Source of the DNA: Perna viridis
Lineage: Eukaryota
DNA length: 64,000 nucleotides
NCBI GenBank assembly: GCA_037379345.1
Contig: CM074520.1
Coordinates: 16,719,488 to 16,783,487, forward strand
Direction: 5' to 3'
Of the stretch, positions 1-60,385 are shown piece by piece; within the stretch, counting starts at the first letter, position 1; every line of letters starts with the position of its first letter. The position numbers and the translations under genes are program-made. The notes below the pieces were generated by a model, which was given only the letters and a program-made list of their open reading frames with translations, ran no database searches and was not told the origin of the DNA.

Positions 1-321
1 ACCAAAGGAAGGCTTGGATTAATTTTGGGGTTTTGAATTGAACTTTTTGGGAATTAGGAGTCAAAATGGGGCACGAAACAAGCATTTTCCTCATGATAAT
101 AAAATGATAATAAATTGAATAAAAATGAATGAACCTTATACAAATTTCACTACAAGGTGCCATGCTGCAAAAGGAATTTTTTGGGTGGTGAATTGAGCCA
201 GGTAAGAGTAAGGATCACAAAAGGACCAAGAACATTTTGTTTTTAAAGTTTTGGATAATAATTTGAGTATAAGGAAATGAATTGCTTTCATAATGTACCA
301 CCAAGTGCCATGCCCAAATAG
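1..321. repeat. Degenerate ~165-bp tandem repeat (Helentron/HINE-like internal array), interrupted by a Penelope-like insertion and resuming at ~1265-1330
   Basis: Recurring motif caaggtgccatgc...aaaggaa...ttttggg at ~1-30, 152-190 and 301-325; the pattern continues as gtgtgggttgatttttgagg after 1265. The family call rests on resemblance only. Confidence 0.4.
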
Positions 322-1264
322 AAAGAGTAATCAAGGGAACCAAGGTTATAGCTGTAAACAAAAGAATGTAAACCAGGGACAAAGACCAGACATGGAAAAC
401 AGACATACACAACAAAGAACATAAAGTAACTAAAATCATACATACAAAGTAACAAAAGTAAATGAGCAACTCGGACTCCACTAAAAACTGGAAGCATGGA
501 CCAGGTGCACCGGTAGGGTAAGCGTCCTCTGCTTTTCTAGAAACACCCACCGAGTTGCTCATAAAAAGTCAAGTCGGGGTAGACAAACAAGTGAAGGAAA
601 ACTATGACCCGTTGAATAAATCAGTTCTCATGGTGCTGATGGATACACCATAACGATCCACGAGTTCATGATAATGATCATAAAACTTCTGTAGTGATGA
701 CTTCAATCTTGTAGCAACATAACCCTGTTCCAGAAGCCTATTTGTTAGAGCTCTAGTGCGATACAAAAAGTGTCTGCATAGTTTCGGCAAGATCTGGCAT
801 AACGTATGAGTTGTGATATGAACACTCCTTACGCAGGAGCCGAAGGGATGTTGCCACAGATGAAAGGAAAGTTGACAATTCTGAATGAAAAGTCATCATG
901 TTTATCGTAAAGTTTGGTCAATAATTTTCCTTTACCATCGATTTCTAAGTGTAGGTCAAGATATGAGGCTGACTTTACAGTGTCTGTAGTATCCTTTATC
1001 TCAAGTTCTTTTGGGTAGATGCGATGTATCAAATCCCCGAAATTAGGATTGTTTAAAGATAATACGTCATCTATATAGCGGGAACTGAGATTGAAGGATC
1101 TAGCCAAACGATATTCTTTCTTTCCGATCAGATCAGCTATAAAGTCAGCCTCATAAGATTGAAGGAATAGGTTAGCAAGTAAAGGAGCACAATTTGTTCC
1201 CATTGGAATGCCGACCGTTTCTTGAAAGACACATCCACCACACTGGACAAATATGTTGTCGATT
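322..1264 (-). mobile_element. Penelope-like retroelement (PLE), 5'-truncated copy A: RT C-terminal half plus 3' UTR
   Basis: ORFs 829-1302 and 602-790 give GIPMGTNCAPLLANLFL, RYIDDVLSLNN, YLDLHL, KLYDKHDDFSFRIVNFP and ...TDLFNGS*, which are PLE-type RT motifs; frameshifted; ends in the family 3' terminus ...cccttgattactctt. Confidence 0.88.
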
Positions 1265-1951
1265 AGGTGTGGGTTGATTTTTGAGGTATTGACTCCAACC
1301 ATTTCTAATAAGGGGCCAAAAGGTGACCGCTTCTATTCTGGTCAAATTCATATACTGTGTCTTGTATTTCTAATCATAATCAAACTTCAAAGCTGTAACA
1401 ACTGTGAATGGTGTGTCCATACTTGCCCCAACTGATCATGGTTCGACATCTGTGGTCGTATTATGTTGCGCTGCATTTTATTCAAAAATGTTTAAAACAT
1501 TACTGTATTTTAGATTAAGCATTTTATATTAAATATCTACAGTTTAATATGATACAAGTAAAATTGAAATAACGTACATACACATCGAGTTTATTCTTTT
1601 ATCTAATTGTCTTGAGTTATATATTCTGTTTCAATTTCTAATATACCGACTGGCGGTTTTGTGGTATGGTATGCCCACTGTTACTGCAGGACCCTCTATA
1701 TAGTGGATAGAGTGACACCAAAGATTTTTAAAATTAGTATTCACTACTTGTCGGCTTGAAGTTACTATAATGCGCCGGAGTGGGTTGATATGACTTATGT
1801 AAGATGTTGCCTCTGTGAGCTGGCGCATCTGTCGTGAATATATATCTCGACAACTAAAAACGAGATTTGTGTATTCATCGATGCCTACCTGGACCATATA
1901 TACCTCCCATGCTAGCTGAATAATTTGAATTAAAGTTTTGTAAAAATCCAT

Positions 1952-2766: not shown

Positions 2767-3183
2767 AAAAGAGTAATCAAGGGAACCAAGGTTCTAGCGG
2801 ACATCAAAAGAAAGTAATCCAGGGACAAAAACCAAACATGGATAACAGACATGCAAAACAAAGAACATCCAGTAACTAAAATAATACATACAAAATAAAA
2901 AAAAAGCAAATGAGCAACTCAGACTCCACTAAAAACTGGAAGCATGGACCAGGTGCACCGGTAGAGTAAGCGTCCTCTGTTTTTCTAGAAATACCCACCG
3001 AGTTGCTCATATGAAGTCAAATCCGGGGTGGTAGAAAGAGGAAAGGAAAACTATGACAAAATGAATAAATCTGTTCATTTTCATGATGCAGATGGATACA
3101 CCGTAAAGATCCAAGAGTTCCTGATGGCGACCATAAAACTTCTGTATTCAATTTTGTAGCAACATAACCCTGTACCAGAAGTC
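2767..3183 (-). mobile_element. PLE copy B (3' UTR and last RT codons)
   Basis: Colinear with 322-740 (aagagtaatcaagggaaccaagg, atgagcaactc, ggaccaggtgcaccgg, ccgagttgctcat). Confidence 0.85.
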
Positions 3184-10636: not shown

Positions 10637-11411
10637 GTAAGATTATAATTAATGAAGCAACATTTAAGGGACAACCCTTTGATTTGAGAGGTTGAGAGAA
10701 AAAGGGGTGTTAATTTTTTTTCTTTTTTGCAGAAGAATAAGTACATGTACAACAATTTCTCCACTCTTAGGGGAAATGATATTGATTTTATAAAAGATCA
10801 GTAACATGACCATTTAAAAAAAAAATGTTTCCCACTACCCAACTTACCCATATGAAATTTGCCCAACCAAAAATATATTACAAGTATAGACGAAATTTGG
10901 TTTGGAATTACCTGCTCCTGCTGCAGAAATACGAGTATATGGGTAATCAAACTCAAATAAAAAAAATAAAAATGATACTCGTCTCAGTGCTAAAAAGGTC
11001 TTTAGCTCTTAAAAACTTCAAAACTGATGTGACCACTAGGTGTCAAGGTCCTTATAACATTTGTAGATGCTAACAGTGCTGATAAAAATTGTATTGGAGG
11101 CAAAATCACTGACATACCATTCAATCTATGTAAGAGACTTTTCATCTATCCCTGATTTGGATGTGCATAATAAATGTGTTTACAGAACGAAAGTGGCAAG
11201 TCATCTATTGCCTTAAATAGTTATACCGGTATGATTCGTTTGGTTATTTTAAAGGCAACCCTTTCATAATCTTATGATACATTTTATAGAATCAATATTC
11301 ATATTGAAAAAAAAAAGATTTTGCCCACTTCCTTGAAATAATTTTCTCTAGCAAACAAACATAATTTCAAATGTGACCCAAAATACATAGATTTAAAATA
11401 CCTCTCCCTTG

Positions 11412-11918
11412 AAAGAGTAATCAAGGGAACTAAGGTTATAGCGGTAATCAAAAGAATGTAATCCAGGGACAAAGACCCGACATGGAAAAACAGACATACA
11501 CAACAAAGAACATAAAGTAACTAAAATCATACATGCAAAGTAACAAAAGTAAATGAGTAACTTGGGCTCCACTAAAAACTGGGAGCATGGACCAGGTGCA
11601 CCGGTAGGGTAAGCGTCCTCTGTTTTTCTAGAAACACCCGCCGAGTTGCTCATAAAAAGTCAAGTCCGGGGTAGACAAACGAGGAAAGGAAAACTATGCC
11701 CCGTTGAATAAATCAGTTTTCATGGTGCTGATGGATACACCATAACGATCCACGAGTTCATGATGACGACCATAGAACTTCTGTAGTGATGACTTCAATC
11801 TTGTAGCAACATAACCCTGTTCCAGAAGCCTATTTGTTAGAGTTCTAGTGCGATACAAAAACTCTGCGTAGTTTCAGCAAGCTCTGGTATAACGTATGAA
11901 TTGTGATATGAACACTCC
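11412..11918 (-). mobile_element. PLE copy C (3' ~500 bp)
   Basis: Near-identical to 322-828; same 3' terminus. Confidence 0.88.
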
Positions 11919-12243
11919 ACAAGTCCACATTATGTAAATGTTTTCCTCTCTATTTTAGATTTAGATCTTTTAGACTTTTACATTTTAAGATGACATCTTA
12001 GGGTTGGGGTATCATATATAGGGAGCTTTGCTCACTGACTTCTAGTTTTGAAAATATTTTAAGCCCCTTGCAAAGTCAGTAAAACTTGTTGATTATATAC
12101 AGACTAAACAAAAACAACTACGTTATTAATAACTTTCTCTGTAAATACGCCACCATATTTCTAATGTATAACCAAGTTTTCATGTTACAGAAATAACGGC
12201 CCTTGAATTTTAAGAATTTCATAGAAATAAGAGTTTTCTGAAC

Positions 12244-12296
12244 TTTTTAGCCACCTGTCCGAAAGCCATGTGAGTTATTGCCATCACTTGGTGTCC
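12244..12296 (+). mobile_element. Helentron/HINE-like 5' terminal fragment, truncated by the tRNA-headed array
   Basis: tttttagccacctgtccgaaagccatgtgagttattgccatcacttggtgtcc resembles the T-run + subterminal inverted repeat + GTCC start of bivalve pearl/HINE elements (recall-based). Confidence 0.45.
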
Positions 12297-13357
12297 AGCG
12301 CCCTAGACCACTACCCCATACATTGTGTACTAAGTTACAGCCCTAGATTAATCCTACGAGGAGAAATGACCCGGCCAGCGAAAGCTGGCCGAGTGGTCTA
12401 GGGCGCTGGACTTAGTGCAGGCGGTGTTGCCATAGATGTCACAGCAGTACGAGTTCGAGTCCCGCGGAGGGAACGACCAAAAATTTGCATCACAAATTTG
12501 ACAGTTCTAACATCGTTGGGAATTTTTCAGACCTTTCTATACGTTTATATATCTTCCCTGTATCAATTTGATCCGATGGAGCAGTGTAGCAAATAGAGTC
12601 GTCACATTCTGAGACTTTGTATAATATTGATTTGTTGTGACATGCATCATTAATTTGATCATCTATCCTACATAATAACATCTAAATGAACTATCCCGTA
12701 CCACCATACATCGTGTACTAAGTTACAGCCCTAGATTAATCCTACGAGGAGGAATGACCCGGCCAGCGAAAGGTATATTTTTATATAGCCTAGCTGGCCG
12801 AGTGGTCTAGGGTGCTGGACTTTGTGCAGGCGGTGTTGCCATAGATGTCACAGCAGTACGAGTTCGAGTCCCGCGGAGGGAATGACCGAAAATTTGCATC
12901 GCAAATTTGACAGTTCTAACATGGTTCGGAATTTTTCAGACCTTTCTATACGTTTATATATCTTCCCTGTATCAATTTGATCCGATGGAGCAGTGTAGCA
13001 AATAGAGTCGTCACATTCTGAGACTTTGTATACTATTGATTTGTTGTGACATGCATCATTAATTTGATCCTCTATCCTACATATTAACATCTAAATGAAC
13101 TGTCCCGTACCACCATACATCGTGTACTAAGTTACAGCCCTAGATTAATCCTACGAGGAGGAATGACCCGGCCAGCGAAAGCTCTATTTTTATAGAGCCT
13201 AGCTGGCCGAGTGGTCTAGGGCGCTGGACTTAGTGCAGGCGGTGTTGCCATAGATGTCACAGCAGTACGAGTTCGAGTCCCGCGGAGGGAACGACCAAAC
13301 ATTTGCATCGCAAATTTGACAGTTCTAACATGGTTCGGAATTTTTCAGACCTTTCTA
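12293..13357 (+). repeat. Tandem array (~2.5 units, periods 388 and 409 bp) of a tRNA-headed, structured SINE/retrozyme-like unit
   Basis: Anchor gtgtactaagttacagccctagattaatcc at 12325, 12713, 13122. A boxes TGGCCGAGTGG at 12386, 12795, 13204; B boxes GTTCGAGTCC at 12453, 12862, 13271. Head resembles tRNA-Leu (tggccgagtggtctagggcgctggacttag). Inverted 20-bp head copy at 12293-12312. Confidence 0.9.
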
Positions 13358-13381
13358 TATATATATATATATATATATATA
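13356..13381. repeat. (TA)n microsatellite at the array/PLE junction
   Basis: Direct reading. Confidence 0.95.
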
Positions 13382-13390
13382 CAAGCTTGC

Positions 13391-13987
13391 AGTCAGCCTC
13401 TTATCTTGACCTACACTACACTTAGAAATCGATGGTAAGGAAAACTATTGACTACACTTTACGACAAACGTGATGACTTTTCATTCAGAATTGTCAACTT
13501 TCCTTTCATCTGTGGCAACATCCCTTCAGCACCTGAGTATGGAGTGTTCATATCACAACTCATACGTTATGCCAGAGCTTGCCGAAACTACGCAGAGTTT
13601 TTGTATGGCGCTAGAACTCTAACAAATAGGCTTCTGGAACAGGGTAATGTTGCTACAAGATTGACGTCATCACTACAGAAGTTCTATGGTCGCCATCATG
13701 AATTCGTGGATCGTTATGGTGTATCCATCTACACCATGAAAACTGATTTATTCAACGGGTCATAGTTTTCCTTTCCTCGTTTGTCTACCCCGGACTTGAC
13801 TTTTTATGAGCAATTCGGCGGGTGTTTCTAGAAAAGCAGAGGACGCTTACCTTACTTTTTCTTTGTATGTATGATTTGAGTTACTGTATGTTCTTTGTTG
13901 TGTATGTCTGTTTTCCATGTCGGGTCTTTGTACCTGAAATACATTCGTTTGATTACTGCTATAACCTTGGTTCCCTTGACTACTCTT
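13391..13987 (+). mobile_element. PLE copy D (RT thumb plus 3' UTR with internal deletion)
   Basis: ORF 13448-13765 LYDKRDDFSFRIVNFPFICGNIPSAPEYGVFISQLIRYARAC...TDLFNGS*; ends cccttgactactctt. Confidence 0.88.
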
Positions 13988-15004
13988 CCAATGACTACGG
14001 CAATGTACTATCTTGTTCGTTTTAATGAAATACAACATATATATAGGTGGATATAAAGGAAACATTGTAATATAATTCTGCAAAACATTGTGCTTGATAT
14101 TTTAGAGAATTCATCTGGTTACGAAATTCCAGAATAACTTTCATTAGTTACGTTTCAAACCATGAGAATATTTCTGATCAACCGAAGATACCGTTATTGT
14201 GGATAGACTTCGAAACTTGATATTTTTGCTCACAGAAGAAGCTAGTTCTTGAGGACTAGGAAATTAGAAACAAATGTGAAATCAATATTTAGTTCATTTG
14301 TTACAATTGCCTATTTGTTAGAAACGTCGAGGAAATGTTTGAGTTGTTTGAAAACAAATTGTTGCCCTTGGTGTAAAAATCAATTTCAATTTTGTTTTCG
14401 TTTGAAGTATACAACAGCTTGATCATTGAACAGGATGGGTTTATCAATCCTTTAGTTTGAACATTTATTGTAAAAACTCGGGGGAAAAAACACTTTCTCC
14501 ATCTGTGCTTGATTATTTAGATATTTTATAGATGAAAAAAAAAAACGACCGGAGTGTCAATAAACGCTACTTAGTCAATGCATATCAATACAAATCTACA
14601 TATATTAACAACATTTTAAGGTTGCAATTGGATCTAAAATGAAAAAGTACCATGTACTAATTGATATAGCATTAAGCAAGGTTGATTCATCTTAGTAAAT
14701 TACCCGATGAAGCCATTGTTCAAGATAAAATCGACGGGTGTAGAAAAGCAGTGGACGCTTATCTTTATGACGCAACTGGTTCATGCTCCCAGTTGTTAAT
14801 GAATTTTTGGTTGGTTAGTATTTGTTTTTTTGTGTATTATTTGGTAATTAATTTTATGTTCTTTGAAATGTGTATCTATTTCCTCTGTCTAGTCAATACC
14901 CCTGGATTTTTACCATTTAAATCCTATTTCCTCTGATTTCTATTTAAAAATAATGATAGATATCGACGGTTTAATCAACTATTCTGAATATGTTTAAACC
15001 GGTT

Positions 15005-16178: not shown

Positions 16179-16199
16179 ATTTATGTTCAGCAAACAGAT

Positions 16200-18200
16200 A
16201 TGAAATTAATGATTCATGAATTATACAAAACAGAACGAAACGGAATGAAGAACTCGTATATATGTGCTTCTAAAATGAACACAAAAACAAACCTTGTTCT
16301 TTTCATTGTCTTCAGCAGTAGTTATATATTTATATACTACACTTTGTTTATATATTCACCAAATATAAATTTGTCGAATAAAATAAAGAACCCAAGACAT
16401 AGTCTATTACTAGACACTGTTGGGTGTAAAATTCCAAAATTGGATCCATTCGACGTAAATATCAAAAAGTATTTTCTCTCGAAAGGCAAGAGACTAGAGT
16501 GTGCATACAAACACGATATACTTTATACTGATGGCAACAAAATAAAAATAAATCGGAATTCTCTAGCCCGTCGACTCAAGTTGAAAAACTGTCGATATAA
16601 AGTGATATGGAGACCAACCAATATTGCAACTGATCATAATTACTTCATTCTCGGCAACCAAAGTGAACCATTTAAAGACAACCAAGTGATTAATGACGAC
16701 TTCATTAAAGTAACATGCTTCAACGATAAAAACATTTCAGTTTACAGAAATGCGTTTTCTTTTATACATAAAAAAGCTGCTGTTGAGAGACGCTGCATGG
16801 AAGTCTTCAAGCAATTTAAAAATTCCTCTGACTTTATCAACGTATTAATGATCGGTATTGATTCTGTCTCGCGAAGTAACATGATTCGGTACATGTCAAA
16901 GTCGAGGGAATATCTTCGGAAAGAAATGGATGCACTTGAATACGTTGGGTACAATAAAGTTGCTGATAATACGTTTTTGAATATTGTTCCAATGACGGCT
17001 GGGAAGTTCGTTCATGAACTCCCATGGAATGCAACAATGACAGAAGAAACATTTGATAAATTTGAATTCATTTGGAAAAAGTTTTCAGAAAATGGATATC
17101 GAACATTATATAGCGAGGATGCACCAAATGGACAAGTATTCGACTACGAGAAGGCCGGATTCAGCAAACCTATAGCAGATTATTTCGACCGACATTACTC
17201 GGTTGTATTAGAACACATGAAAGACGTATGGAATACCGATCATCAATGTGTGCATGCTAGACCTGAAACAAAGATAAAGTTAGATTACACAAAACAATTC
17301 GTTAAGACATTCGCAAATTCGCCATTTTTTTCGTTTACGTTCAATACAAGATTAACACATGATATACTGGAGAATGCATATGCAGCTGATGAACTGTACC
17401 TTAATTTTTTCAAAGATATACACGAAGGGTCTTATTTGAAAAACACATTTTTGATATTTTTCAGTGACCATGGGATAAGGTTTGGTAACTTTCGTCAAAC
17501 ACATATAGGGAAAATGGAAGAGAGATTACCATTTTTGTTCATTGTTGTTCCTCAATGGTTTAAATATAAATATACAAATTTTTATAATAGCTTGAAAAAA
17601 AATACAGAGCGGCTTGTGACACCATTCGATATATACGAAACTTTGGTTCATCTTCTGAACATTACAAAATACAAAGATGATTCATTTGGACGGAGCCAGA
17701 GTTTATTCAGTTCTATTCCAACCGAAAGAACCTGTGCACAAGCCGGAATTCTTCCTCATTGGTGCACATGCCTTAATGAAGAAACCGTTTTGGATTTGAA
17801 AAACAAGTTTGTTAAACAAATCGCAAAATCATTTGTCGAAAGCATTAATAAACAACTCCACAATTACACTCAATGTAATCGACTAGAATTAAAAACAGTT
17901 AGAGCAGCTACCAAGTTTTTGCCCTCTGATTATATTTTGAAATACATTAAGACATCACACATGAGACACAAATCCGAAATCAAATTTGGAAAAAGAGTCC
18001 AGGCAAATGTACACTACCAGATTGTGATACAAACTACCCCAGGGGATGGTATATTTGAAGTGACAATGGAATACTCGGAAGCAAGCAGATCTATTAAAAG
18101 GGTTGGAGACATCAGTCGTATAAATATGTACGGCAAAACTTCTCATTGTGTTGAGGGCATTGATTTAAAGAAAATATGTTATTGCAAAGGACAAATCTGA
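16200..18200 (+). CDS. DUF229-family (alkaline phosphatase/sulfatase superfamily) type II membrane protein, single coding exon; true start may be a downstream Met such as MNTKTNL
   Basis: Intact 666-aa ORF; N-terminal hydrophobic anchor LVLFIVFSSSYIFIYYTLFIY; motifs NVLMIGIDSVSR, YNKVADNTFLN, LTHD, FFSDHGIRFG, EERLPFLF, RLVTPFDIYETL, RTCAQAGILPHWCTC, and C-terminal SRINMYG...CYC. Confidence 0.92.
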   Translation: MKLMIHELYKTERNGMKNSYICASKMNTKTNLVLFIVFSSSYIFIYYTLFIYSPNINLSNKIKNPRHSLLLDTVGCKIPKLDPFDVNIKKYFLSKGKRLECAYKHDILYTDGNKIKINRNSLARRLKLKNCRYKVIWRPTNIATDHNYFILGNQSEPFKDNQVINDDFIKVTCFNDKNISVYRNAFSFIHKKAAVERRCMEVFKQFKNSSDFINVLMIGIDSVSRSNMIRYMSKSREYLRKEMDALEYVGYNKVADNTFLNIVPMTAGKFVHELPWNATMTEETFDKFEFIWKKFSENGYRTLYSEDAPNGQVFDYEKAGFSKPIADYFDRHYSVVLEHMKDVWNTDHQCVHARPETKIKLDYTKQFVKTFANSPFFSFTFNTRLTHDILENAYAADELYLNFFKDIHEGSYLKNTFLIFFSDHGIRFGNFRQTHIGKMEERLPFLFIVVPQWFKYKYTNFYNSLKKNTERLVTPFDIYETLVHLLNITKYKDDSFGRSQSLFSSIPTERTCAQAGILPHWCTCLNEETVLDLKNKFVKQIAKSFVESINKQLHNYTQCNRLELKTVRAATKFLPSDYILKYIKTSHMRHKSEIKFGKRVQANVHYQIVIQTTPGDGIFEVTMEYSEASRSIKRVGDISRINMYGKTSHCVEGIDLKKICYCKGQI

Positions 18201-21320: not shown

Positions 21321-22791
21321 CTGGCCACTACACTCTCCAAAGAAGAGATAGTGGATAACCATATATCTGTGCTATCCTCTTTTATTTTCTCTACCGAAGA
21401 CGATGATTGTGATTAACTGTCTTTGTACTGGATTCCTAAACTCCACAATAATCCACACAAACAACGTTACATAGCTGAATCTCTACCACCAAACCTCTTT
21501 TAAAAATTAATCTTCTATACTCACAGCTGTCAATGGGGGTCTCAAGTCTTACCACAACACTTATTACTCCCGTAGTGGTATTAATTCAATGTGGATCCTG
21601 AAAAAATTCGAAAGCTCTTTTGGAGACCCTCAATTCAAGATTATTATCAGAATATAATAACATTAAAACCACCTATGATTGTTGAACATTGTATACTTCT
21701 ATTCCCCATACTCAGTTAAAATCCCGACTCAAACGCATTATACATCGTCGTGTCTCAAAAAAGATGGTACACCTAGATACATATGTATAGGTCTTGGTAG
21801 AGAATTTTCATAGTTTGAAAAACATAATTCCAAATTACCAAAGATGTTTTCAAAAAGCTGGAATTGTTGACCCACAACTTATTTGTCCAGTGTGGTGTAC
21901 ACGTTTTTCGGTATTCCAATGGGAACAAAATGTGCTGTTATACTTGCTGACCTATTCTTACTTTTTTAAGGCTGACTTTATAGCTGATCTGATAATAAAG
22001 AAAGAACATCGTTAAGCTAGATCCTTTAATTTAGGTTTCCGCTATATAGATGACGTGCTATCGTTAAACAAACCTAGTTTCGTGAATTTGATACATCGCA
22101 CCTACCCCAAAGAACTTGAGATAACAGCTATCACATACACTGTGGGCAGCTCCATATCTTGTCTTACCCTTAGAGAATGAGTGTAAAGGAACATTATTGA
22201 CAAAAGTTTAAGACAAACGTGATGACTTTTCGTTCAGAATTGTCAACTTTCCTTTCATCTGTGGCAACATCCTTTCAGCTCATGCGCATGAAGTTTTCAT
22301 ATCACCACTCACACGTTATGCCAGACCTTGCCGTAACTATCCAGACTTTTTGCATCGCGCTAGACTCCTTACAATTGGCCTTGTGGAACAGGATTATGTT
22401 GCTACAAGATTGAAGTAGTCACTACAGAAGTCTTATGGTCGTCATCACCAACTCATGGATCTTTACGGTGTATACATCTGCAGCATGAATACCGATTTGT
22501 TCATTGTGTCAGTTTTCCTTTCCTCTTTCGTCTACCCCGGGACTGGACTTTTTATGAGCAACTCGTTGGGTGTTTCTAGGAAAGCAGAGGATGCTTACCC
22601 TCCGGTGCACCTGGTCCATGCTCCCAGTATTTGGTTGAGTCTGGGTTGCTTATTTACTTTTGTTTATTTGTATGTATTATATTAGTTACTTTATGTTCTG
22701 CGTTGTGTTGGTCGGTTTTCCATGTCTGGTCGTTGTTTCTGGATTATATGCTTTTGTTTTCCTCTGGAATCTATGTATCCTTGATTACTCT
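21321..22791 (+). mobile_element. PLE copy E (degenerate full RT region plus 3' UTR)
   Basis: YWIPKLHNNPHKQRYIA, YSRSGINSMWILK, RYIDDVLSLN, DDFSFRIVNFP across frameshifts; 3' end ccttgattactctt. Confidence 0.88.
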
Positions 22792-23919
22792 TATGCATTG
22801 CTTTGTGAAGAAAATTGTAAAGCAAACTACCAGTTTTGTATAAATTTCCATTAAATCTCATATCTTCAGTGCTAAATCCCTGAACCTAGAATCGTGTTGA
22901 CTATCATAATTATTATATACTAATGTATTATTTCTCAAGTTTTATATACTATTCGTCATACCTTTCTGGTAATTTTGATAATATTTTTTGTATGTGTGTT
23001 GTTCGACCGCAAAAAAAGTATACACATTAAATGGTATACAATAGCATATGGTAATATATATAAAACAAAAGTTTATTTACAGTTTATTACATCTGAATCT
23101 GAAGAACATTGGTTCTCATCAGAGGTTTAAGATCTTACATTTCGCAGAACAGCAGAAAAGCACGGTCAAAAATATGGCGACGCAAGTTTTCAAAATCATG
23201 TGACAAATGACTACAGAATGGTGATACCTCAAAGAAGATATTATGTCTGCGTTTTCCAGACTGACCCCTTGTCAAAAACTCGCGAAATGAAAATAACGAT
23301 ATTTAAAGTTTTAGATTTTGAAACACTTAGGTTATTTCATACAGTGAAAGACCGATATATTTCTGTGCTGCAGTGTATGTTTAACACACGGAGAGGTGTA
23401 GAGTACTAAATTTCAATTTAGACAGCAGGGGAGGCAACTGTGTTCGGACGTGTCAGTACAATTGTGACACAATAAGTATTTATTGTATTTTGACGCCTCA
23501 CCTGTGTATACAACACAAAAGGATTTGATGAAAAATTTTTATTAGATTTCCACTTACTAATAAAACCACCCCTAAGAATTCATACAAGCTATATTAAAAA
23601 CCATTGGTTTTTATGATGGGTTCAACCTTCAGCACTGTAACCAATAGGTGAAATATTGGTATGATTGTCAAATTCAATGCGTTTCCAGAATTTAGAATTA
23701 AGAAAAAAATCAAATATATTCCATTTAACTTTTGTCTGGCAACAAGCAATGGAAAAAATGTTTTCACATTATATACCTAAATTCTGAAGTTATGATTAAA
23801 TGCCTATAGATTCATGTTCAAGGAGAGCAAAATGGAGCAATTACCTTTGCTTTAGACATATCACCATATGCTATAGTTGACCATTTAATGTGTCTTTGGT
23901 TTCAATCATTGTCATGAAT

Positions 23920-37992: not shown

Positions 37993-40900
37993 TTTATCTT
38001 ATAAAGTGGCTTTAAAATGATTTATGACAAAATGTCGCTCACATCACGTTTGCAATATTAAAGACTTCAAGTCGAATTTCACCTTATAAACTCCTGTCAT
38101 TTGTCTAATGAAATTTAAGTGTGAACGTGTGAAATAACAACACGTGATTGTACGTAGCTCAGTAGGGGATATCGCATGTATAGAAAACATGTGGGTAACT
38201 GTTTGTATTTAAACTTACAGTTGTAGTTTTCTATAGGGAAATGATATGATAACTGGAGTTATTCTTTTTTGTATTTTATCTTGTTATGGAAAAAGTGAAA
38301 ATTATGAAATTAAACATTGACAGTTGCAACTTCCTAATTCAAAGTATCAGCAAAAAACTTAATTCGTGAGCAAAAAAAAAAAAAAAATAAGACATTATTT
38401 ATTTAGTGTTGGTGGTCATATTGTTGTTCTTCACGCTCTAATACTAATCATTTGTTTACTTTCTTTTTCGAAACTCGTGATCTGATTTTCAATGTTGAAT
38501 ATCGAAATGTATTTGATAAATTGATTAATCAGAGTATATTTAAAACAACGAATTCAAATGTATCAATTAAAAGCACATTAAAGGCGTAACATAAGTTATA
38601 AACAGTTCAACCCTTGAAAACACGTGAATTTCAATCATTTGGGCACACAAATTGCATGCGAAGTAGATTATTACCTGTGCATAATATTGTTTTAGGGCCA
38701 GCTGCAGCCTGCCCTGTGCCTTGAGGGTTTCCTCGTTATTAATTGAAGACCAATGGGGTGGTAATAAGCTCACATTTTGCATCGAACCGAAGGAAAAAAT
38801 TACACTTGAAAACTGAAGATAAGGGAAATAAGATGTCACACGATAAAAAAAAACTAAAGTACTAGAAATACAAACTCTCCAACAGACCGAAATTGACCAT
38901 CAAGAGCTCAGGAATGGTAGGTATGTCCACCAGCAATACCTGCCATATTGCAAGTAAGTATCATGCTGGAAACGAAGTAAACAACTTTGAATTAGTGGAA
39001 ACATAACCGGAATTAACAAAGGTCATCGTTTGTCTTTAATAACATTCCCTAGAAATACCTTCATTCATCAAAGAAAAAGAATTTCCAATATGAAAGAGGA
39101 CTGTTCAAAGAAAATAAAAGATACAGTGATCCCATGTCAATATTTATCAGTTCTTTATGTTAAGTACAGTACTATATTGTTTTGAAAAAAAAAAACACTG
39201 TAGATGCCGTCAAACTAATATTAATCAGTTTGGTAGTTTAATAATTTGTACATCTCTTAAAAAATATCCCCTTACTCATATTCCGGACTATATAAAGTTG
39301 ACTGTAAAAAAATAACAGCGTTTTGATTCTTTTCTGAAACAACAAGTAACCATATGCGCCGTTTATGTAATAACAAACAGGTTGTACATCATTTATAACG
39401 AGAATGGATTTGATGAATATACCAGAGAGACAACAACACCACCAGGATGAAATGTCAGCCCAAGGCCAGCCATAGGTTTTCACTGAATGAGAGGAATGAC
39501 TAGGAATAATAATCAACGGTTTATAACTTTATAAATATATATTTAGCCTACTAAACAATTGGTTTCAGTGTCAGCCATTTCATCTGGTTGAGTTTTATGG
39601 GGGAGTCTTGGTTGCTCATCATTTACCTTTGTTTTTTTATGTTTGTGCTTTTTTGTTATATCTTTGTTGTACTTGACTGTTTTCCGTACCTTGTTATTAT
39701 TCTTGGTTATATTCCTCTATTATGATTACGTGCCGTTCGAATTATTGTCCCTTTGATTTCCGTTTCACGTTGTCACCTGTAGATGCCTCATTGATTTAAC
39801 CAAGTGTAATGTACGACATAAATGCTTTTTTTCCACGGCGAGAAAAGGTCTTGAAGAGGATAAACATACTTTGGTCTTGTTTTGCAGGCACATCTGGACT
39901 CTTTATATATATCATTTTTCTTTTTTTCGTTTTTTACATACATAGTTTTTGACATATTTTAATTTAGTATTTTAGCATGATTTACAGTATTTAAACTTAT
40001 TTTATGCGACATTTATGCCCGAGAATATCTGAAGCATACCAAGCAAAATAAATGTTGTTGAACATGTTGATGGCTTTGATATAGAATTATTTTTTTTTAC
40101 TCAGAGTCATTTAGATGCCTCAGTCTATGTTAATGTACTTATGCATTTTTTTGGAAATTCGAATTCGTGAAGATCGCAATAGCGCTGGAGGTTGAATCTC
40201 TTATTTCAAGAGTAAGTTAAAATTTCGACGTAGATATGATTTGGAAGTAATGGATGTTGAAAGAATGTAATTGTAATTAGCAACACAGGACATATTTATT
40301 CCTATATAAACTAGCAGATTGCAAACTTTTCAAATCAAAAATAGCAAATACAAACTACTTTTAACTAATTGCAACACAAAAGGCGTAGATATGCTTGTAC
40401 AAACTTTACAAATACTTTTATCAACATATTCAGATAATGCACCTATAATAATTATTTGGTGAAACGATAAACATTGGTTCAAGTCGATGCGAGACAGGAG
40501 ACCAGCATGCGACTTGGCCTACGTAAAAAATTTCTCACAATCAAATCATTGTGAACTTAAATATAAAGCTCAGAATAACACGGTTAGCAATATAAAAATG
40601 TACATAACAGCAATTTTATGCTAATATTAATGGATCCCTTTCTGGTTTCGATTAACGTGACTCTGAAAAGCGATTTGCTAAATTCATGTATTGCACCACT
40701 GCACGACCCAAAAACTGACATTGAGCTCGTGTTTGCTCGTCGAAGTGCAATGTTCTAGACCAATACTTTTGTTCTGTCGCAGAATTAAAAAAAAGCGATA
40801 AAGATTTACCACCATTTGGTGGCACACGTAACGAAATTCGCACAGAAATAATCATACAATTACACGTATCAAAATGACCTATTGTATAAATATCAATCTG

Positions 40901-41518: not shown

Positions 41519-42538
41519 AAAGAGTAATCAAGGGAACCAAGGTTATAGCGGTAATCAAAAACATGTAATCCATGGACAAAGACCAGATATGAAAAACAGA
41601 CATACACAACAAAGAACATAAAGTAACTAAAATCATGCATGCAAAGTAACAAAAGTAAATGAGCAACTCGGTATCCAATAATAACTGGGAGCATGGACCA
41701 GGTGCGTCCTCTGCTTTTCTAGAAATACCCGTCGAGTTGCTCATAAGACAGTCAAGTCCGGGTCAGACGAAAGAGGAAAGGAAAACCATGACACGTTGAA
41801 CAAATCAGCATTCATGGCGCAGATAGATATACCGTAGCGATCCACGAGTTCATGCTGACGACCATAAAACTACTGTAGTGATGACTTCAATCTTGTCAAA
41901 AAACAACATAACCCTGTTCCAGAAGCCTATTTGTAAGAATTCTAGCACGATACAAAAAGTCCGCGTAGTTTCGGCAAGCTCTGGCATAACGTATGAGTTG
42001 TGATATGAACACTCCATACGCAGGTACTGAAGGGATGGTGCCACAGATGAAAGGAAAGTGGACACTTCTGAATGAAAAGGCATCACGTTTGTTGTAAAGT
42101 TTGGTCAATAGTTTTCCTTTACCATCGATTTCTAAGTGTAGGTCAAGGTATGAAGCTGACCTCACAGTGTCTGTATATCCTTTATCTCAAGTTCTTTGGG
42201 GTAGATGCGATGTATCGAATGCCCAAAATCAGGATAATACGTCATCTATACAGCGGAAACTGAGATCTAGCTAAACGATATTATTTCTTTCGGCTATAAA
42301 GTCAGCCTCAGAAGAGTGAAGGAACAGGTCAGCAAGTACAGGATCACAATTAGTTCCCATTGGAATGCGGACCGTTTGTTGTAAATCGCGTCCGCCACAC
42401 TTGACAAAGATATTGTCGATTAAAGGTTCCAGCATTTTGTAAACATCTTATGTATATTTGGAAGATGATTTGGAATTATTTGTTGACAAAGTATGAGGAA
42501 TCTCTACCAAGAACTATATATTTGAATCTAGGTGTACT
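41519..42538 (-). mobile_element. PLE copy F
   Basis: ORF 41896-42165 SASYLDLHLEIDGKGKLLTKLY...LIRYARAC; same 3' terminus aagagtaatcaagggaacc. Confidence 0.88.
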
Positions 42539-53294: not shown

Positions 53295-53812
53295 TTGATT
53301 GATTGTTGGGGTTTAACGTCCGAGCAGCAATATTTCAGCTATATTCAGACGATGAACGTGAAATGGATGATAAAATAAATGAACACGAAATGATGATAAA
53401 ATAAAAAAGAGATGGGACACAAGGGCAACAGGGCCGACAAATTTAGATTGCCACTAGAAAAAGGGAGGGATGGGTAGGTTCGGGCAATTTAGCCTCCTGT
53501 GGCGGAGCGCAAAGGTTCCTACTCCTATCGAATACCACAGCAGGGTTCTTTAACGTGCGAGGAACGTGGCATCTTTCCCAACACGGTGCACCACAATGGT
53601 TTGCGGTCAGGTTTTCCGTATTATAGCCCGACAACCCCAGCATGTAATACGCCAGGGGTACCCCATTCCACTACCTGGGACACACATCCCAGTTACTCTG
53701 TGGCAGAGCGCCTAGCCCCCGGCTAGGTTTCTGAGCGCTATCTAGTCGCCTTTTACGACAAGCTTAGCGCTGCTGCAGGCCTATTCTTTTGACATCCGGA
53801 CTTGCACGGGAC
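53295..53812 (-). mobile_element. SINE-like retroposon with Meta/Deu-type central domain, (CAAT)n tail and 13-bp TSD
   Basis: TSD gtgatgataaata at 53282-53294 and 53813-53825; minus-strand core gcacgttaaagaaccc...ttcgataggagtagg...ggctaaattgcc; 3' end atagctgaaatattgctg...gacgttaaaccccaacaatcaatcaa; GC-rich relative to flanks. Confidence 0.82.
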
Positions 53813-54339
53813 GTGATGATAAATAACTTGACTGCATTTTAAAATACAAATCAAGATGTTGATTATATACATTAGAATACTTCAAATTTAGAAGTTCAGG
53901 ATCGGACATTAAAGGCAGCTCAACATATTTATATAATGTAATAGATTTAAACAGAGTTAATAAGAGTGCAGCGATTTATTATAAATCCATGGTAATTCAA
54001 CTATACATTAATGATAGATGAGAAAGATAGTAAACGATAGCTAGCTACAAATTCCAATCTATATCTCTAAACCAATCTAGACTAGACTCATCCTAGAAAC
54101 TCTAACTCAAGATACTCAATTGTCTCTTGTATGTATGTAAAGAAAAAACATTCTTGATCGTATATTGTATTTCAAAATAAGGCCATCAGTCACACATTTT
54201 TCTTGCAAGTATCACTTATTACGATATGTTAATTGCTTAATAGGCAAAGAGTAGAGCGGGGTATAAATAGATATTTATATGAATTGAATGTTTATCAAAA
54301 AATGAATTTCATCACATGCTGTTGTTCACTCATTCGGGA

Positions 54340-56665
54340 ATTAACACCGCCAAATTCGCAGACTGGGTACTGCAATACCTTACGGGTGCAATGACAACAT
54401 CAAAAGTATAAGAAACCTTTCAAGCCAATATAACAATAGAATAAATGTGATGAATTCATTCGACAAAATCCGAGACGGGAAAGGAGTCATGGCCATCGTC
54501 ACTATACGTCACCTTAGTTACATGATGTCTCCATAGGTGGTCTCCTCTTTCTTACATACAAAAACCTCTTGGACTTCATCACATTAGAACCAAACTTTAT
54601 TCTATACCTCTCACGCTACTACACTCCCTTTACAAAACAAATCTTGACACAAGTCAAAATGAAGAAATATGATAATTTCTTCCACTACCGTTTGTCAAAA
54701 AAGATATAGATGCAATTACTTTTGCTAACATCCTCCATCACAAAACATTACCAACAAAATTCCCACATATTTCAAAGACAAATTCATACAAATTATTTCA
54801 TATTCTTATACTTCACCCACTGCATCCAAAATTTTCAATTATAAAAGGCTATTGCAGAACCTCGAGATTGAGGACTTTAAGGCTAAACCACCTGACTGTT
54901 CTTGCAAAAACTCTCCACACATTGATTCTCTGTCAGAGTGGTTAAAGGAAGTGAGGTCATTAATTTTGAAACGTATGAACGTTTAAGTAGGTCAATGAGT
55001 GCAAAGGCTACATCAGTTTTCAAAGACCCGATGTAACAAAAACATTGTCTACTATACATGACAAATATTGTCGTACCAGCAGACAAAGCCCAAAACAACA
55101 CTGCTTTTGTCTGCAAAACATTTTACATCCAATGTTTATTATTAGAGGTAGAAGTAGAAATTAATGGCAGTGATACAATCTATACTGCTATCACACTCTC
55201 CAAAGAATGGAAAACCATAAATCTGTGCTATCCTCCTTTGGTCTCTCTACCAAGGACGATGATTGTGACTTACCGTCTATGTACTGGATTCTAAGCTCCA
55301 CAAGAATCCATACAAACAACGTTTCATAGGTGGATCTGCAAAATGTACAACAAAACCTCTTTCAATACTCTTTAACTTCTATACTCACAAATGTCAAAGA
55401 GGGTCTGCAGTCCTACCACAACACTTGTTACTCCCGTAGTGGTATTAATTCAATGTGGATCCTGAAAAATTCGAAAGATCTTTTGGAGACAATCAGTTCA
55501 AGACTATTATCTGAATATAATAGCGTTAAAACCTATGATTTGTCAAAACTGTATACTACTTCTCACCATTATCCCGACTTAAAAACATTATACATCGTTG
55601 TTTTTCCAAAAAAGATGATACACCTAGATACAAATATATAGTTCATGGTAGAGATTCCTCATACTCTGAAAGAAATAATTCCAAATCATCTTTCAAATAT
55701 ACAGAGGAAGATGTTTACAAAATGCTGGAAATTTAATCGACAACATATTTGTCCAATGTGGTGGATGTGTTTTTCAACTAACGGTCGACATTCCAATGGG
55801 AACAAATTGTGCTCCTTTACTTGCTGACCTATTCCTTCACTCTTATGAGGCTGATTTTATAGCTTATCTGATCCGAAAGAAAGAATACCGTTTGGCTAGA
55901 TGCTTTAATCTCAGTTTCCACTATACAGATGACGTATTATCTTTAAACAATCCTAATTTCGAGGATTTGATACATTGCATCTACCCCAAAGAACCTGAGA
56001 TAAAGGATACTACAGACACTGTGAAGTCAGCTTCATATCTTGACCTACACTTAAAAATTGATGGTAAAGGAAAACTATTGACCAAACTTTACGACAAACG
56101 TGATGACTTTTCATTCAAAATTGTTAACTTTCTTTTCATCTGTGGCCACATCTCTTCAGCACTTGCATATGGAGTCTTAATATCTCAACTCATAAGTTAT
56201 GCCAGAGCTTGCCGAAACTACGCAGACTTTTTGTTTCGCAGTAGAACTCTAACAAATAGGATTCTTCTGGAACAATGCTATTGAAGTCATCACTACAGAA
56301 GTTTTATTGTCGTCATCATGAACTCGTCGATCGTTATGGTGTATCCATCTGCACCATGAATACTGATTTATTCAACGGGTCATAGTTTTCCTTTCCTCTT
56401 TTGTCTACCCCGGACTTGACTTTTTATGAGCAACTCGGCGGGTGCTGCTAAAAAAAGAAGAGGACGCTTACCCTAATGGTGCACCCGGTCAATGTTCCTA
56501 GTTTTAAGTGGAGTCCGAGTTGCTCATTTGCTTTAATTGCTTTGTACGTATGATTTTAGTTACTTATGTTCTTTGTTGTGTATGTTTGTCTTCCATGTCT
56601 GGTCTTTGTCTCTAGATTACATTCTTTTGATTACCGCTATAACCTTGGTTCCCTTGATTACTCTT
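54340..56665 (+). mobile_element. PLE copy G (longest): GIY-YIG C-terminal remnant, linker, RT, 3' UTR; Naiad-type permuted domain order
   Basis: IRRLGTAIPYGCND at 54354-54395 (the LxTxxPxGxN end of GIY-YIG); linker KPLGLHHIRTKL, KIFNYK, KPPDCSC; RT motifs VVPADKAQNN, MGTNCAPLLADLFL, YTDDVLSLNN; stop at 56383-56385; 3' end gattactctt. Confidence 0.9.
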
Positions 56666-57282
56666 GCATCATACTTCTTGTGTTTGTCGGGATCAAGGGA
56701 TGCCATAAACCAGAGGATCATGATCGTTATCTTACGCATTTTCGTTCCCTTAAAAGAAAATATTCAGGAATAATTCGGATGCCGAACACAATGAGATCAT
56801 TAATGCAATAATTGTTCTATAAAACTGGTTTTAAAATGCGTCATAAAATGTCATTTTTAAAGTGTCATTTCACGGAGTAACTCAAAGATTCAAACACGCA
56901 ATGGTTATAATAGCAAGATTACACAACTAAAACTATCCATTTCATGATAGATGGTTGTTATAAAAGTTCAATTTAGTGGACTTACTGCTTTCCCATGTCT
57001 AATCAACCCGGTCGGAAAGGACGACCTGTAGTTACCCAAACATGGAAGTCATAATGGTAATTAATGATATCATTGCAATCCACACATACATAAAATCAGT
57101 ATTCGTAATACATGTCAGTTAACAGTTTGACAGTTGTCATAATCATTGGAATTTATGCACATCAGAAACTGGCTAATTGCTCATCTATGTTGTCAATACT
57201 TTCATGAATGGTTCCACTATCGATTGTTTATTAAATAACACCATTGAGTTTGTCTTCCTTGGTGGCGTGACCTCCACCTTGA

Positions 57283-57632
57283 GGTGACTCTAATACACTT
57301 TTCTTTGCTACAATGTTGACTAACCAACACGTGAAACCCATCCAAAACGTATTTAGAACATTCAACATGCTAAAGTGATTCATTCTTTTAACCTTAGGTA
57401 CCTAGGGGTGACTCTAGTACACTCTTTTGCTACACTGTTGACTAACCAACACGTGAAACCCTTCCAAAACGTATTCAGAACATTCAACATGCTAAAATGA
57501 TTCATTCTTTTAACCTTAGGTACCTAGGGGTGACTCTAGAACACTCTTTTGCTACACTGTTGACTAACCAACACGTGAAACCCATCCCAAAACGTATTAA
57601 GGACATTCAATATGCTCAAGTGATTCATTCTT
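57283..57632. repeat. ~122-bp tandem repeat, ~3 copies
   Basis: ggtgactcta at 57283, 57407 and 57529; each unit contains CACGTG; two units end in the palindrome taggtaccta. Confidence 0.93.
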
Positions 57633-58199
57633 CTAAACTTACGATGTTGAAGTTAAACAGGCAACTCCTGACTTCAACATACAATATCGATAGAAAAAAA
57701 TCGTAGCTCACTCCTGTATTACATGTATTACCCGCTTATTGATATTTTTTCTTTTACATTAATGCATGCAACAACAACAGAGTACAAGCACGAACATATT
57801 TCGTGCAAATATTCAATAACCTGTTTTCTTTGTACGCTTCTTATCATTTCTTGGTGTGTTTTGCCATTTGTTGATAAAGGATTACTAAATCTTGTGTTGA
57901 CTTAGTTTTATCATTTCTTTTGAGTTTTATTTGACCAATGAACAGGTTTTCAGCAGGATTTTGTTGTTTATAATCATTATTAATTTCATAACGAATTGCA
58001 GTGGCCGTATCATTAGAAAAATCTTATTGTAACAAATGCCCATAGTTTTATTTAGCATTTTATTCCATATTAGGTATGTCACTGTCAGAATTCGATAAAC
58101 AGTTCTTTTACCTCTGAATCTTTATGCATTTTTTATTTAAGGTTAATTTTCGGAGTCATGATTACAACTTCTTTCTGAATTAATTGTGTTTAAGTTGTT

Positions 58200-59649: not shown

Positions 59650-59975
59650 AAAATTGGGAAAATTTATTCCAATAGGAAAACTTGATTTCCAATTGGAATA
59701 TCGACTTTCCAATTGGAAAACCGGTTTTCCCATTGGAAATTCACAATTTCCCATTGGAGAACGAGTGCTCCCATTGAAAAATTTCTTCTCGTAGGAAAAA
59801 AATTTCCCATTGGAGAAAATTTCTTCCAATTGGAGAAAATAAATCCAATCGGAGAATTTTTTTCCAATGGGAAAATAATTTTTCCCAACAGAATTTTTTA
59901 TTTCCAATGGGAAGTATACTTTCCAATTGGAAGATATAATTCTCAAGTTGAAGATAAAAATTTCGATTGGAATAC
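59650..59975. repeat. Array of ~15 short palindromes (TTCCAATTGGAA consensus) spaced ~19-21 bp apart
   Basis: cc(a/c)attgg-like cores near 59689, 59709, 59729, 59750, 59770, 59806, 59826, 59845, 59864, 59904, 59922. Confidence 0.85.
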
Positions 59976-60385
59976 ATATGATATTGAGGATAGCTTTAAT
60001 TTCTCCGTTATTTCATATATCCATGAAATAAAATGATTTGATTGATGTGCATGTATAAGTCATGAATTGCAAAGTAAACCTGCATTTTCAAATTACAAAA
60101 TTTTAATCAAATAAAAACAAATAAATGTACATGTACAGGTACAAATGCGTGTGATTTTATAGGGAACTAGTTAGCACATCTGCACATCTTTTTTCGTGAA
60201 AGGTATCCAAAAACTAAATATTTGATGAACTGATTTCCACTACATGATTTTTCTGAAGTCTTTCTATTCCATCTCATTTATTCGGCAATAAAATCACATG
60301 CTTCTTTATACAGCAGTCAGTAGAGAACTTATAAATGAGTTACAAGTAAACCTGAATCAGCCAAATGCGACGATTTTTCGTACCC

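What the first reader, a model, noticed from the sequence alone, without database searches (positions are those of the whole stretch)
13123..13237. Long hairpin spanning the unit junction: the unit's 3' end is an antisense copy of its own tRNA-like head, with a looped-out core
Seen: tgtactaagt pairs with acttagtgca, ccctaga with tctaggg, cggccagc with gctggccg, and gctctat with atagagc around a T-run loop. There is a GAAA/CUA internal loop and a side branch tcct-acg-agga-ggaatg opposite the D-loop/A box. G-U pairs indicate the + strand is the folded one. Unit 1 has a clean 21-nt deletion that leaves a perfect cggccagc-GAAA-gctggccg tetraloop hairpin. The T-run lies just upstream of the next head, where a Pol III terminator would make a monomer with paired 5' and 3' ends. 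Inference: a terminal stem that brings the ends together for ligation or RT priming, or a non-canonical self-cleaving junction (CUACGA...GAAA-stem-CUA loosely echoes a hammerhead but has the wrong topology). The antisense arm could also bind host tRNA-Leu in trans as a primer.
Basis: partly seen in the sequence, partly recalled or inferred. Interest (0 to 1): 0.75.

Follow-up and report, generated by a model that had tools for sequence, protein, structure and literature searches.

The report
End-clamping hairpin in tRNA-headed jumping repeat
A very abundant 409-letter repeat that starts with a tRNA-like head ends in a tail complementary to that head, which likely holds the two ends of its RNA together so that a borrowed reverse transcriptase would copy it into head-to-tail chains without the self-cutting ribozyme that similar elements use.

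Summary
The hairpin is real: 35 core pairs in four helices, z -7.7. It is present at all three unit junctions and in other copies seen in sequencing runs. It joins the tail of one 409-nt unit to the tRNA-Leu-derived head of the next. The family looks like a non-autonomous element moved by a Penelope-like (PLE) reverse transcriptase: partial tandem, a 20-nt inverted piece at the 5' end, several 3' ends at internal TATA words running into TA-rich sequence, no target duplication. No known ribozyme core is present; the junction has only the right half of a hammerhead. The arm matches the element's own head, not tRNA-Leu, so tRNA priming is rejected. An RNA from A13192 to the next T5 would be exactly one unit with clamped ends. 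But a second T5 lies 149 nt after that start, RNA reads cross the loop, no discrete ends were seen and covariation is one pair. Unit 1's deletion is slippage between direct repeats. Verdict: new variant of PLE-type tandem retroposon (element type about 0.8); end-clamp for template jumping about 0.4; inert inverted-duplication relic about 0.3.

The parts
12293..12312 (-). Exact 20-nt inverted copy of head 13210-13229, fused to the array's 5' end (PLE-style inverted 5' piece)
   Evidence: I2, I3: 100% complementary
12316..13360 (+). Partial tandem array, period 409 nt, about 2.5 units, 7-13 substitutions between units
12320..12427 (+). Junction hairpin 1, with a 21-nt deletion of the tip stem that leaves a GAAA tetraloop
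   Evidence: (z -6.6)
12708..12836 (+). Junction hairpin 2 (tip stem has the family-majority A-U pair and one G-G mismatch)
   Evidence: (z -5.3)
13117..13176 (+). Antisense arm: reverse complement of the element's own head 13202-13245, with a 5-nt and a 14-nt insertion (side branch 13149-13162)
13177..13201 (+). GAAA/CUA internal loop and 7-bp tip stem; pair 13184/13195 is C-G here and A-T in about 97% of family depth
   Evidence: (table 3)
13187..13191 (+). T5 run at the hairpin tip: candidate Pol III stop and inferred unit-to-unit junction; A13192 is the candidate start, 12 nt before tRNA position 8
   Evidence: function inferred
13197..13290 (+). tRNA-Leu-derived head (tRNA position 1 = 13197; A box about 13204-13214; B box about 13270-13280; acceptor stem lost)
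   Evidence: 13204-13228 differs from tRNA-Leu genes in loci L077-L087 at one position, 13219; 28-30 of the first 40 identical. Box definitions recalled. No tRNA called here
13341..13345 (+). Internal T5, family-wide, 149 nt after the candidate start; a possible premature Pol III stop
   Evidence: (table 7)
13029..13032 (+). Internal TATA word where many family copies end and run into TA-rich sequence
   Evidence: tables 2 and 7 (loose ends behind 13024 and 13032: 119-211 reads per site and RNA run)
13356..13381 (.). (TA)13 tract into which the array's 3' end runs at an internal TATA word
13388..13990 (+). Flanking 3' fragment of a Naiad-type Penelope-like retrotransposon (RT C-terminus and 3' UTR); shares no sequence with the unit

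Best explanation
The hairpin is the head-to-tail junction of a very abundant, ribozyme-free, tRNA-Leu-headed repeat that is likely a non-autonomous retroposon copied into TA microsatellites by a Penelope-like reverse transcriptase, and the stem is predicted to clamp the two ends of a unit-length RNA so that the enzyme would jump from the 5' end to the 3' end and write tandem copies. Shown: the hairpin, the tRNA-Leu head, the tandem array, the inverted 5' piece, 3' ends at internal TATA words next to TA-rich sequence, and a head part about twice as deep as the tail part. Inferred: (1) Pol III starts at about A13192, reads through the internal T5 part of the time and stops in the tip T5, giving a 409-nt RNA with a blunt 5' end and a short U overhang; (2) a nicked (TA)n target anneals to an internal UAUA word and primes cDNA; (3) the enzyme either falls off near the 5' end, giving the common copy of about 245 nt without the arm, or crosses the clamped ends directly or after ligation, giving multimers that keep the arm; (4) the arm first arose as an inverted 5' copy of the head, a normal PLE by-product, and was kept because only arm-bearing copies renew the cycle.
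For: Structure: 33 end-to-end pairs p>0.5 in the predicted monomer; A12783 to T13191 is 409 nt. Family: 20 of 24 listed runs hold the stretch or part of it, 14 with half or more of its words; 29,367 contigs were laid in run X1, and pieces from X1 and X12 span the hairpin (tables 1 and 8). Depth steps up across 13197-13245 and down at 13024-13032, with head/tail depth of 3.9-4.1M against 2.1M in X1 and 459-577 against 216-235 for + first mates in X23 and X24. Loose 5' ends were seen at 13196 (44 contigs) and 13210 (78 reads, probably one locus). PLE hallmarks of partial tandems, 5' truncation, an adjacent inverted 5' copy, (TA)n targets and no clear target duplication are described in PMC8557442 (sections 6 and 15) and are seen here. 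One double change keeps a pair at 13184/13195. None of the 40 listed substitutions falls in the 34 positions of the two inner long helices (p 0.026, region chosen after looking), and 3 of 12 listed indels fall in the 18-nt tip (p 0.014). RNA over the tail is strand-skewed, 395:216 and 555:235, which means + strand if the libraries are of the usual stranded kind.
Against: The internal T5 at 13341-45 precedes the tip T5 and also has predicted structure just upstream (0.71 paired over the last 10 nt, against 0.34 at the tip), so a structure-gated stop at the tip only was not supported. Read-through of 1-6 U tracts was reported in human cells (10.1101/2020.09.11.294140, passages); nothing was found for molluscs. 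RNA depth over the loop is 83-99% of that to its left and no clustered starts or ends were found; these libraries may miss short or circular RNAs. Covariation in the three window copies does not exceed shuffles (255 of 500). 52-66% of family depth has T at 13232, which breaks an outer pair, and 4 of 74 long-range paired positions vary against 7.2 expected (p 0.11); the arm side alone gives p 0.17. Only 40 of 234 substitutions and 12 of 14 indels were shown. No partner was identified: the unit shares nothing with local Naiad fragments, none of the 7 local Naiad 3' ends runs into a (TA)n tract, and none of the 11 bivalve Naiads in the PMC8557442 table is listed with a (TA)n preference. The strand skew comes from one study and partly from a few loci.
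Confidence: 0.4

Rival explanations
1. Same element type, but the hairpin is an inert relic: an old inverted duplication of the head that was caught in the unit. Tandem copies are renewed from read-through transcripts of existing arrays, and the stem is only carried along.
For: A fresh inverted head piece sits at this array's 5' end, which shows how such arms arise. RNA runs through the loop. An internal T5 precedes the tip. The majority allele at 13232 breaks a pair. Both strands fold almost equally well. A single double change in a palindrome can come from DNA template switching (established knowledge, recalled). Unit 1 lost the whole tip.
Against: The arm has taken 5- and 14-nt insertions and internal loops while its four helices keep 35 of 35 pairs. 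No listed substitution falls in the inner helices. G-U outnumbers A-C 6 to 1-2 (not significant). The start-to-T5 distance equals exactly one unit.
Confidence: 0.3
2. The hairpin is a protein-recognition or protein-cleavage signal on long read-through RNA. A host double-strand nuclease would cut multimers to monomers, or the partner RT would load there; it is not an end clamp on a Pol III monomer.
For: RNA spans the junction with a strand skew. The stem is the only structured part of the unit and stands where retrozymes carry their processing ribozyme (PMC7229834, passages). This avoids the internal-T5 problem.
Against: No clustered ends in the two raw RNA runs (table 6). No partner shares the motif. 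It does not explain an intact A box and B box with a T5 directly before the start.
Confidence: 0.17
3. The junction is a new or degenerate self-cleaving or self-ligating ribozyme, or the remnant of a type I hammerhead that lost its 5' core and stem II.
For: The order stem I, GAA, stem III, UH, stem I matches the right half of the PLE hammerheads tabulated in File S2 of PMC8557442, with one extra base in stem III. Unit size and tandem form match mussel retrozymes of about 350-390 bp.
Against: The hammerhead 5' core has no match within one mismatch on the + strand, and no complete core exists on either strand. There are 0 HDV-like candidates and no hairpin-ribozyme, twister or twister-sister words. 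No Rfam ribozyme appears at E<=10. RNA reads are continuous over the site.
Confidence: 0.1
4. The arm binds host tRNA-Leu, or its 5' half, in trans as the reverse-transcription primer, as in an LTR-type element.
For: The arm can form a partial duplex with tRNA-Leu 5' halves (-27 to -32 kcal/mol). Anticodon-loop priming exists in Copia-type elements (PMC10886601).
Against: The arm pairs far better with its own head (-56) and matches head-specific bases. The longest match to a tRNA 3' end is 3-4 nt. I saw no LTR pair or primer-binding site, and no target duplication over 4 nt. The listed copy ends do not fall at the arm. The tRNAs used were virus-encoded, not the host's.
Confidence: 0.03

Closest known systems
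Metazoan non-LTR retrozymes (PMC7229834, PMC7761336, passages; bioRxiv 10.64898/2026.07.22.740005, parts 1-3 of 5)
   Same: Non-coding tandem units of a few hundred nt, transcribed, proposed to be moved by PLE enzymes; a structured element at the unit junction.
   Different: No hammerhead core; a tRNA-derived head; the monomer is not self-paired outside the junction stem; circles not shown.
Non-autonomous Penelope-like elements such as Chlamys MRC1, and (TA)n-targeting Naiad and Hydra clades (PMC8557442, passages, sections 6 and 15, supplement parts 1-2)
   Same: Head-to-tail partial tandems, 5' truncation, inverted 5' piece, microsatellite target, no clear target duplication, no ribozyme needed.
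   Different: tRNA-derived Pol III-type head; no 3' similarity to the local autonomous family; long tail-to-head stem.
[quoted passage not shown]
   Same: High-copy tRNA-related element described as SINE-like and as satellite DNA.
   Different: Those carry an active type I hammerhead; here its place is taken by an antisense arm and a T-run.
Bivalve tRNA SINEs, for example the 245-265 nt tRNA-Leu V-SINEs of Mytilus (PMC11481361, passages and rows of supplementary table 2)
   Same: tRNA-Leu head; the short form here is about 245 nt; occasional tandem and palindromic arrays.
   Different: Those have target duplications and short AATC-type tails; here there are several TA-joined ends and a conserved antisense arm. 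Sequence comparison was not possible because the FASTA supplement is unreadable here.
Helenus and Cassandra (TRIMp3; PMC10886601, parts 1-4 of 6 and supplement searches)
   Same: Small Pol III-type retroelement with a tRNA-like promoter; tandem arrays occur.
   Different: No LTR pair, primer-binding site or 4-bp duplication seen; three unit motifs are absent from the Helenus supplement and the Mytilus entries read look unrelated.

Membership tests
tRNA-derived SINE (SINE2) | tRNA-related head with A and B boxes | tested here: met
   box definitions recalled
tRNA-derived SINE (SINE2) | Short, non-coding, high copy | tested here: met
   409 nt, no ORF of 100 aa over the array; 29,367 contigs laid in one run. 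Depth is not a copy number.
tRNA-derived SINE (SINE2) | Transcribed by Pol III | not testable with these tools
   RNA reads exist (3355 and 4056 laid) but show no ends
tRNA-derived SINE (SINE2) | One fixed 3' end with LINE-like tail and target-site duplication | tested here: not met
   several 3' ends at internal TATA words; no duplication over 4 nt at this locus
Non-LTR retrozyme | Tandem units of about 170-400 nt | tested here: met
   period 409, at the upper edge
Non-LTR retrozyme | Type I hammerhead in each unit | tested here: not met
Non-LTR retrozyme | Abundant circular RNA | not testable with these tools
   reads across the junction cannot tell circles from tandem read-through
Non-LTR retrozyme | Highly self-paired monomer | tested here: not met
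   z +0.05 to +1.3 outside the hairpin
Non-autonomous Penelope-like element | Partial tandem insertion with 5' truncation | tested here: met
Non-autonomous Penelope-like element | Inverted 5' piece next to the insertion | tested here: met
   12293-12312; one locus only
Non-autonomous Penelope-like element | Microsatellite target, no clear target duplication | tested here: met
   (TA)13 at 13356-81; TA-rich loose ends in all four runs
Non-autonomous Penelope-like element | 3' similarity to an autonomous partner | tested here: inconclusive
   none with the three local Naiad fragments tested; other PLE families of the genome were not available
Helenus / TRIMp3 | Two LTRs with primer-binding site and polypurine tract, 4-bp duplication | tested here: not met
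   no primer-binding site against the tRNA-Leu set, no duplication over 4 nt, no motif match; LTR ends judged by eye
Hammerhead ribozyme | 5' core followed by stem II | tested here: not met
Hammerhead ribozyme | GAA, stem III, UH, stem I | tested here: met
   13177-13209 with one bulged base; layout compared
Bivalve HCD SINEs (V, Meta, Deu, Core, MD) | Conserved central domain | not testable with these tools
   FASTA supplement unreadable; 0 motif hits in the 8 readable files

The most novel reading that the evidence does not exclude
A ribozyme-free counterpart of retrozymes: a Pol III unit whose promoter, stop and antisense tail are arranged so that one transcript is exactly one unit with its ends base-paired. 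This makes a pseudo-circular (or ligated circular) template on which a Penelope-like reverse transcriptase rolls out tandem copies into TA microsatellites, that is, a tRNA-headed SINE class whose partner is a PLE rather than a LINE.
Probability: 0.3. Interest if true: 0.75.

Novelty: new variant of a known kind. Interest (0 to 1): 0.5.

Why it matters
How Penelope-like elements make their tandem and inverted insertions is stated as open in PMC8557442 (section 15), and it is unclear there what replaces the hammerhead in ribozyme-less families. A small, abundant passenger whose only structured part is an end-to-end stem would give a minimal template for testing template jumping by these telomerase-related enzymes, and would add PLEs to the known partners of tRNA-headed SINEs. 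I found no description of such an element in searches. The library lacks most subscription papers and Repbase was not available, so the family may already be catalogued as a SINE or unknown repeat. If the stem is a relic, the finding is an ordinary repeat feature.

Tried and rejected
No own genome was available, so copies could not be aligned. Homologue hunts found none. Viral contigs gave 0 loci for four patterns and 7 for a 15-mer, metagenomes gave 1 and prokaryote genomes 68; BLAST of the unit against these loci showed only seed-length matches among the 20 best. Phages and plasmids gave no match at E 1. The RT query gave no confirmed locus in viral contigs. A covariance model of the three copies found no further copy in the window: next best outside the array 16.5 bits, E 0.07. 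ARAGORN and Rfam call no tRNA or family here. Rejected: Helenus/TRIM; tRNA priming; known ribozyme cores; the local Naiad family as proven partner; a structure-gated stop acting only at the tip T5; unit 1's tetraloop as a designed variant. A Helitron-type 3' end (hairpin then CTAG, recalled) was considered; listed copy ends fall at TATA words instead. The joints 13353 to 12945 are not evidence of circles or tandems; they only reflect where I cut the reference. A likeness of the GAAA/CUA loop to loop-E-type motifs is recalled and untested. The supplement of PMC7229834 (mussel retrozyme sequences) and the SINE FASTA of PMC11481361 could not be read and may bear on membership. The A/B-box regex returned nothing, not even this head, so it was uninformative.

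Full report
Observation. The segment 13110-13245 folds on the + strand to -67.8 kcal/mol, z -7.72, with 0 of 200 shuffles as stable. The three junction copies rank 1, 2 and 4 among 936 windows of the 64 kb, and the rest of the unit is unstructured (z +0.05 to +1.3). The - strand folds nearly as well (-63.7, z -7.41), so G-U pairs say little about strand (6 against 5; in-register 6 G-U to 1-2 A-C, p 0.06-0.14). Unit 1's 21-nt deletion is real but lies between 4-nt direct repeats, which points to slippage.

Anatomy. The hairpin is the junction of a tandem array of period 409, about 2.5 units at 12316-13360. The head is tRNA-Leu-derived: 13204-13228 differs at one position from the tRNA-Leu sequences in 11 viral loci (9 called as whole tRNA-Leu genes by ARAGORN, 2 cut by contig ends), which sets tRNA position 1 at 13197. 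A B-box word lies at 13271 (box definitions recalled). The head is no longer a tRNA. The arm 13117-13176 is the reverse complement of the head with 5- and 14-nt insertions. On the left, the array begins with an exact 20-nt inverted copy of 13210-13229. On the right it runs at an internal TATA word into (TA)13, followed by a reverse-transcriptase fragment. No target duplication over 4 nt was found. The flanking RT family is Naiad-type: 2 of 5 long relatives scanned show an N-terminal GIY-YIG domain, one has the DKA motif, and a Naiad consensus in the PMC8557442 supplement shows the same RT C-terminus by eye. The host is therefore probably a mollusc (inference).

Family evidence. One unit (12945-13353) was laid on four runs. 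29,367 contigs were laid in X1, and 3355 and 4056 RNA reads in X23 and X24. Listed pieces span the hairpin, so it is not private to this locus. 20 of 24 listed runs hold the stretch or part of it, under three organism labels plus metagenomes. Depth is about twice as high from the head through to 13024-13032 as over the tail. Loose ends lie behind 13024, 13032 and 13351 and are TA-rich; others lie before 13196 and 13210. So a form of about 245 nt without the arm is about as common as the full unit, and 3' ends fall at several internal TATA words. These are the insertion marks described for Penelope-like elements (PMC8557442 sections 6 and 15). The 13351 ends lie at the reference edge and partly reflect family divergence. 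The joints 13353 to 12945 only reflect my cut point.

Is the stem maintained? About 97% of X1 depth has A at 13184 and T at 13195, while unit 3 has C and G: one pair-keeping double change. None of the 40 listed substitutions falls in the 34 positions of the two inner long helices (p 0.026, post hoc; arm side alone p 0.17). Against this, 52-66% of depth has T at 13232, breaking an outer pair. Over all 74 long-range paired positions the deficit is 4 against 7.2 (p 0.11), and covariation among the three window copies equals the shuffles (255 of 500). Only 40 of 234 substitutions were shown and none are phased. The evidence for selection is suggestive, not established.

Ribozyme: there is no Rfam ribozyme at E<=10, no complete hammerhead core, 0 HDV-like candidates and no hairpin or twister words. 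The junction does match the right half of PLE hammerheads without the catalytic left half. tRNA primer: the arm pairs with its own head at -56 against -27 to -32 kcal/mol with tRNA-Leu 5' halves, follows head-specific bases, and no primer-binding site was found (viral, not host, tRNAs). Pol III monomer: an RNA from the A after one T5 to the end of the next is exactly 409 nt, starts 12 nt before tRNA position 8 and pairs its ends. But a second, family-wide T5 lies 149 nt after that start and also has upstream structure. RNA depth over the loop is 83-99% of its left neighbour and no clustered ends were reported. Short U tracts were leaky in human cells, and these libraries may not hold small or circular RNAs, so the monomer is neither shown nor excluded. 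RNA over the tail is skewed 395:216 and 555:235, meaning + strand if the libraries are of the usual stranded kind; both runs are one study.

Mechanism. I commit to a non-autonomous, PLE-moved, tRNA-headed retroposon (about 0.8) whose stem clamps the ends of a unit-length RNA, so that the reverse transcriptase, primed by (TA)n at an internal UAUA, either stops near the 5' end or crosses to the 3' end and writes tandems (0.4 overall). This one model accounts for the doubled head depth, the several TA-joined ends, the junction at the hairpin tip and the lack of a ribozyme. All steps after the anatomy are inferred. Rivals: inert relic of an inverted duplication (0.3), protein recognition or cleavage site on read-through RNA (0.17), new or remnant ribozyme (0.1), tRNA priming (0.03). 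The partner is unknown. The local Naiad shares no sequence with the unit, its 7 local 3' ends do not run into (TA)n, and none of 11 bivalve Naiads is listed as (TA)n-targeting, whereas other Naiads and nearly all Hydra-clade elements are.

Comparison and novelty. It works like a non-LTR retrozyme or a non-autonomous PLE, but it is not a retrozyme (hammerhead test failed), not Helenus and not a standard LINE-moved SINE (no fixed 3' end or duplication). Membership of the bivalve HCD SINE families could not be tested. Sm-alpha is the nearest tRNA-headed analogue but has a hammerhead. Literature searches showed no description of this arrangement; Repbase and most subscription papers were not searchable. 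One earlier AI note from another genome (e1-7810945) describes a similar TA-landing tRNA-derived repeat; it is a lead only and was not checked. Verdict: new variant of a known kind, interest 0.5.

Noticed in passing
window 321-1330, 2769-3181, 11409-11919, 13388-13990, 22165-22792, 41520-42160, 55330-56668, 60362-60811: At least eight truncated copies of one Naiad-type Penelope-like element in 64 kb; the seven 3' ends inspected share the same terminus. The copies at 11409-11919 (-) and 13388-13990 (+) flank the array in diverging orientation, 95% identical over 316 nt.
   Followed up: partly
window 12240-12296: The array's inverted 5' piece is fused to a short stretch that resembles, from recall only, the 5' end of bivalve Helentron-type repeats; no other copy in the window.
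   Followed up: no
array units 12316-13360: The units are mosaic: units 2 and 3 share two changes that unit 1 lacks, while units 1 and 3 share A at the 13232 position where unit 2 has the family-majority T. This suggests mixed templates or conversion rather than one copied monomer.
   Followed up: partly
run X24, positions 13128, 13135, 13162: About a fifth of minus-first-mate reads carry changes that would be neutral or pair-restoring in the hairpin; probably one expressed diverged locus, not phased.
   Followed up: no
window 53400-53820: GC-rich structured stretch, third most stable 136-nt window (-52.3 kcal/mol); probably another short retroposon (family not tested).
   Followed up: no
window 16179-18200 (+): Uninterrupted 673-aa ORF of the DUF229 / sulfatase-like family.
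   Followed up: no
window 36961-37998 (-): Uninterrupted 345-aa rhodopsin-family 7TM receptor ORF.
   Followed up: no
window 30729-34380 (-) and 58730-59062 (-): Broken pieces of another RT-bearing retroelement, and an integrase-core fragment.
   Followed up: no
window near 62990-63020 and 63835-63861: Two (TA)n tracts 843 nt apart with identical 30-nt flanks on both sides: a recent tandem duplication or an assembly repeat.
   Followed up: no
window 57276-57641 and 59655-59940: A 122-nt tandem repeat (3 copies) and a degenerate 19-20-nt palindromic tandem array.
   Followed up: no
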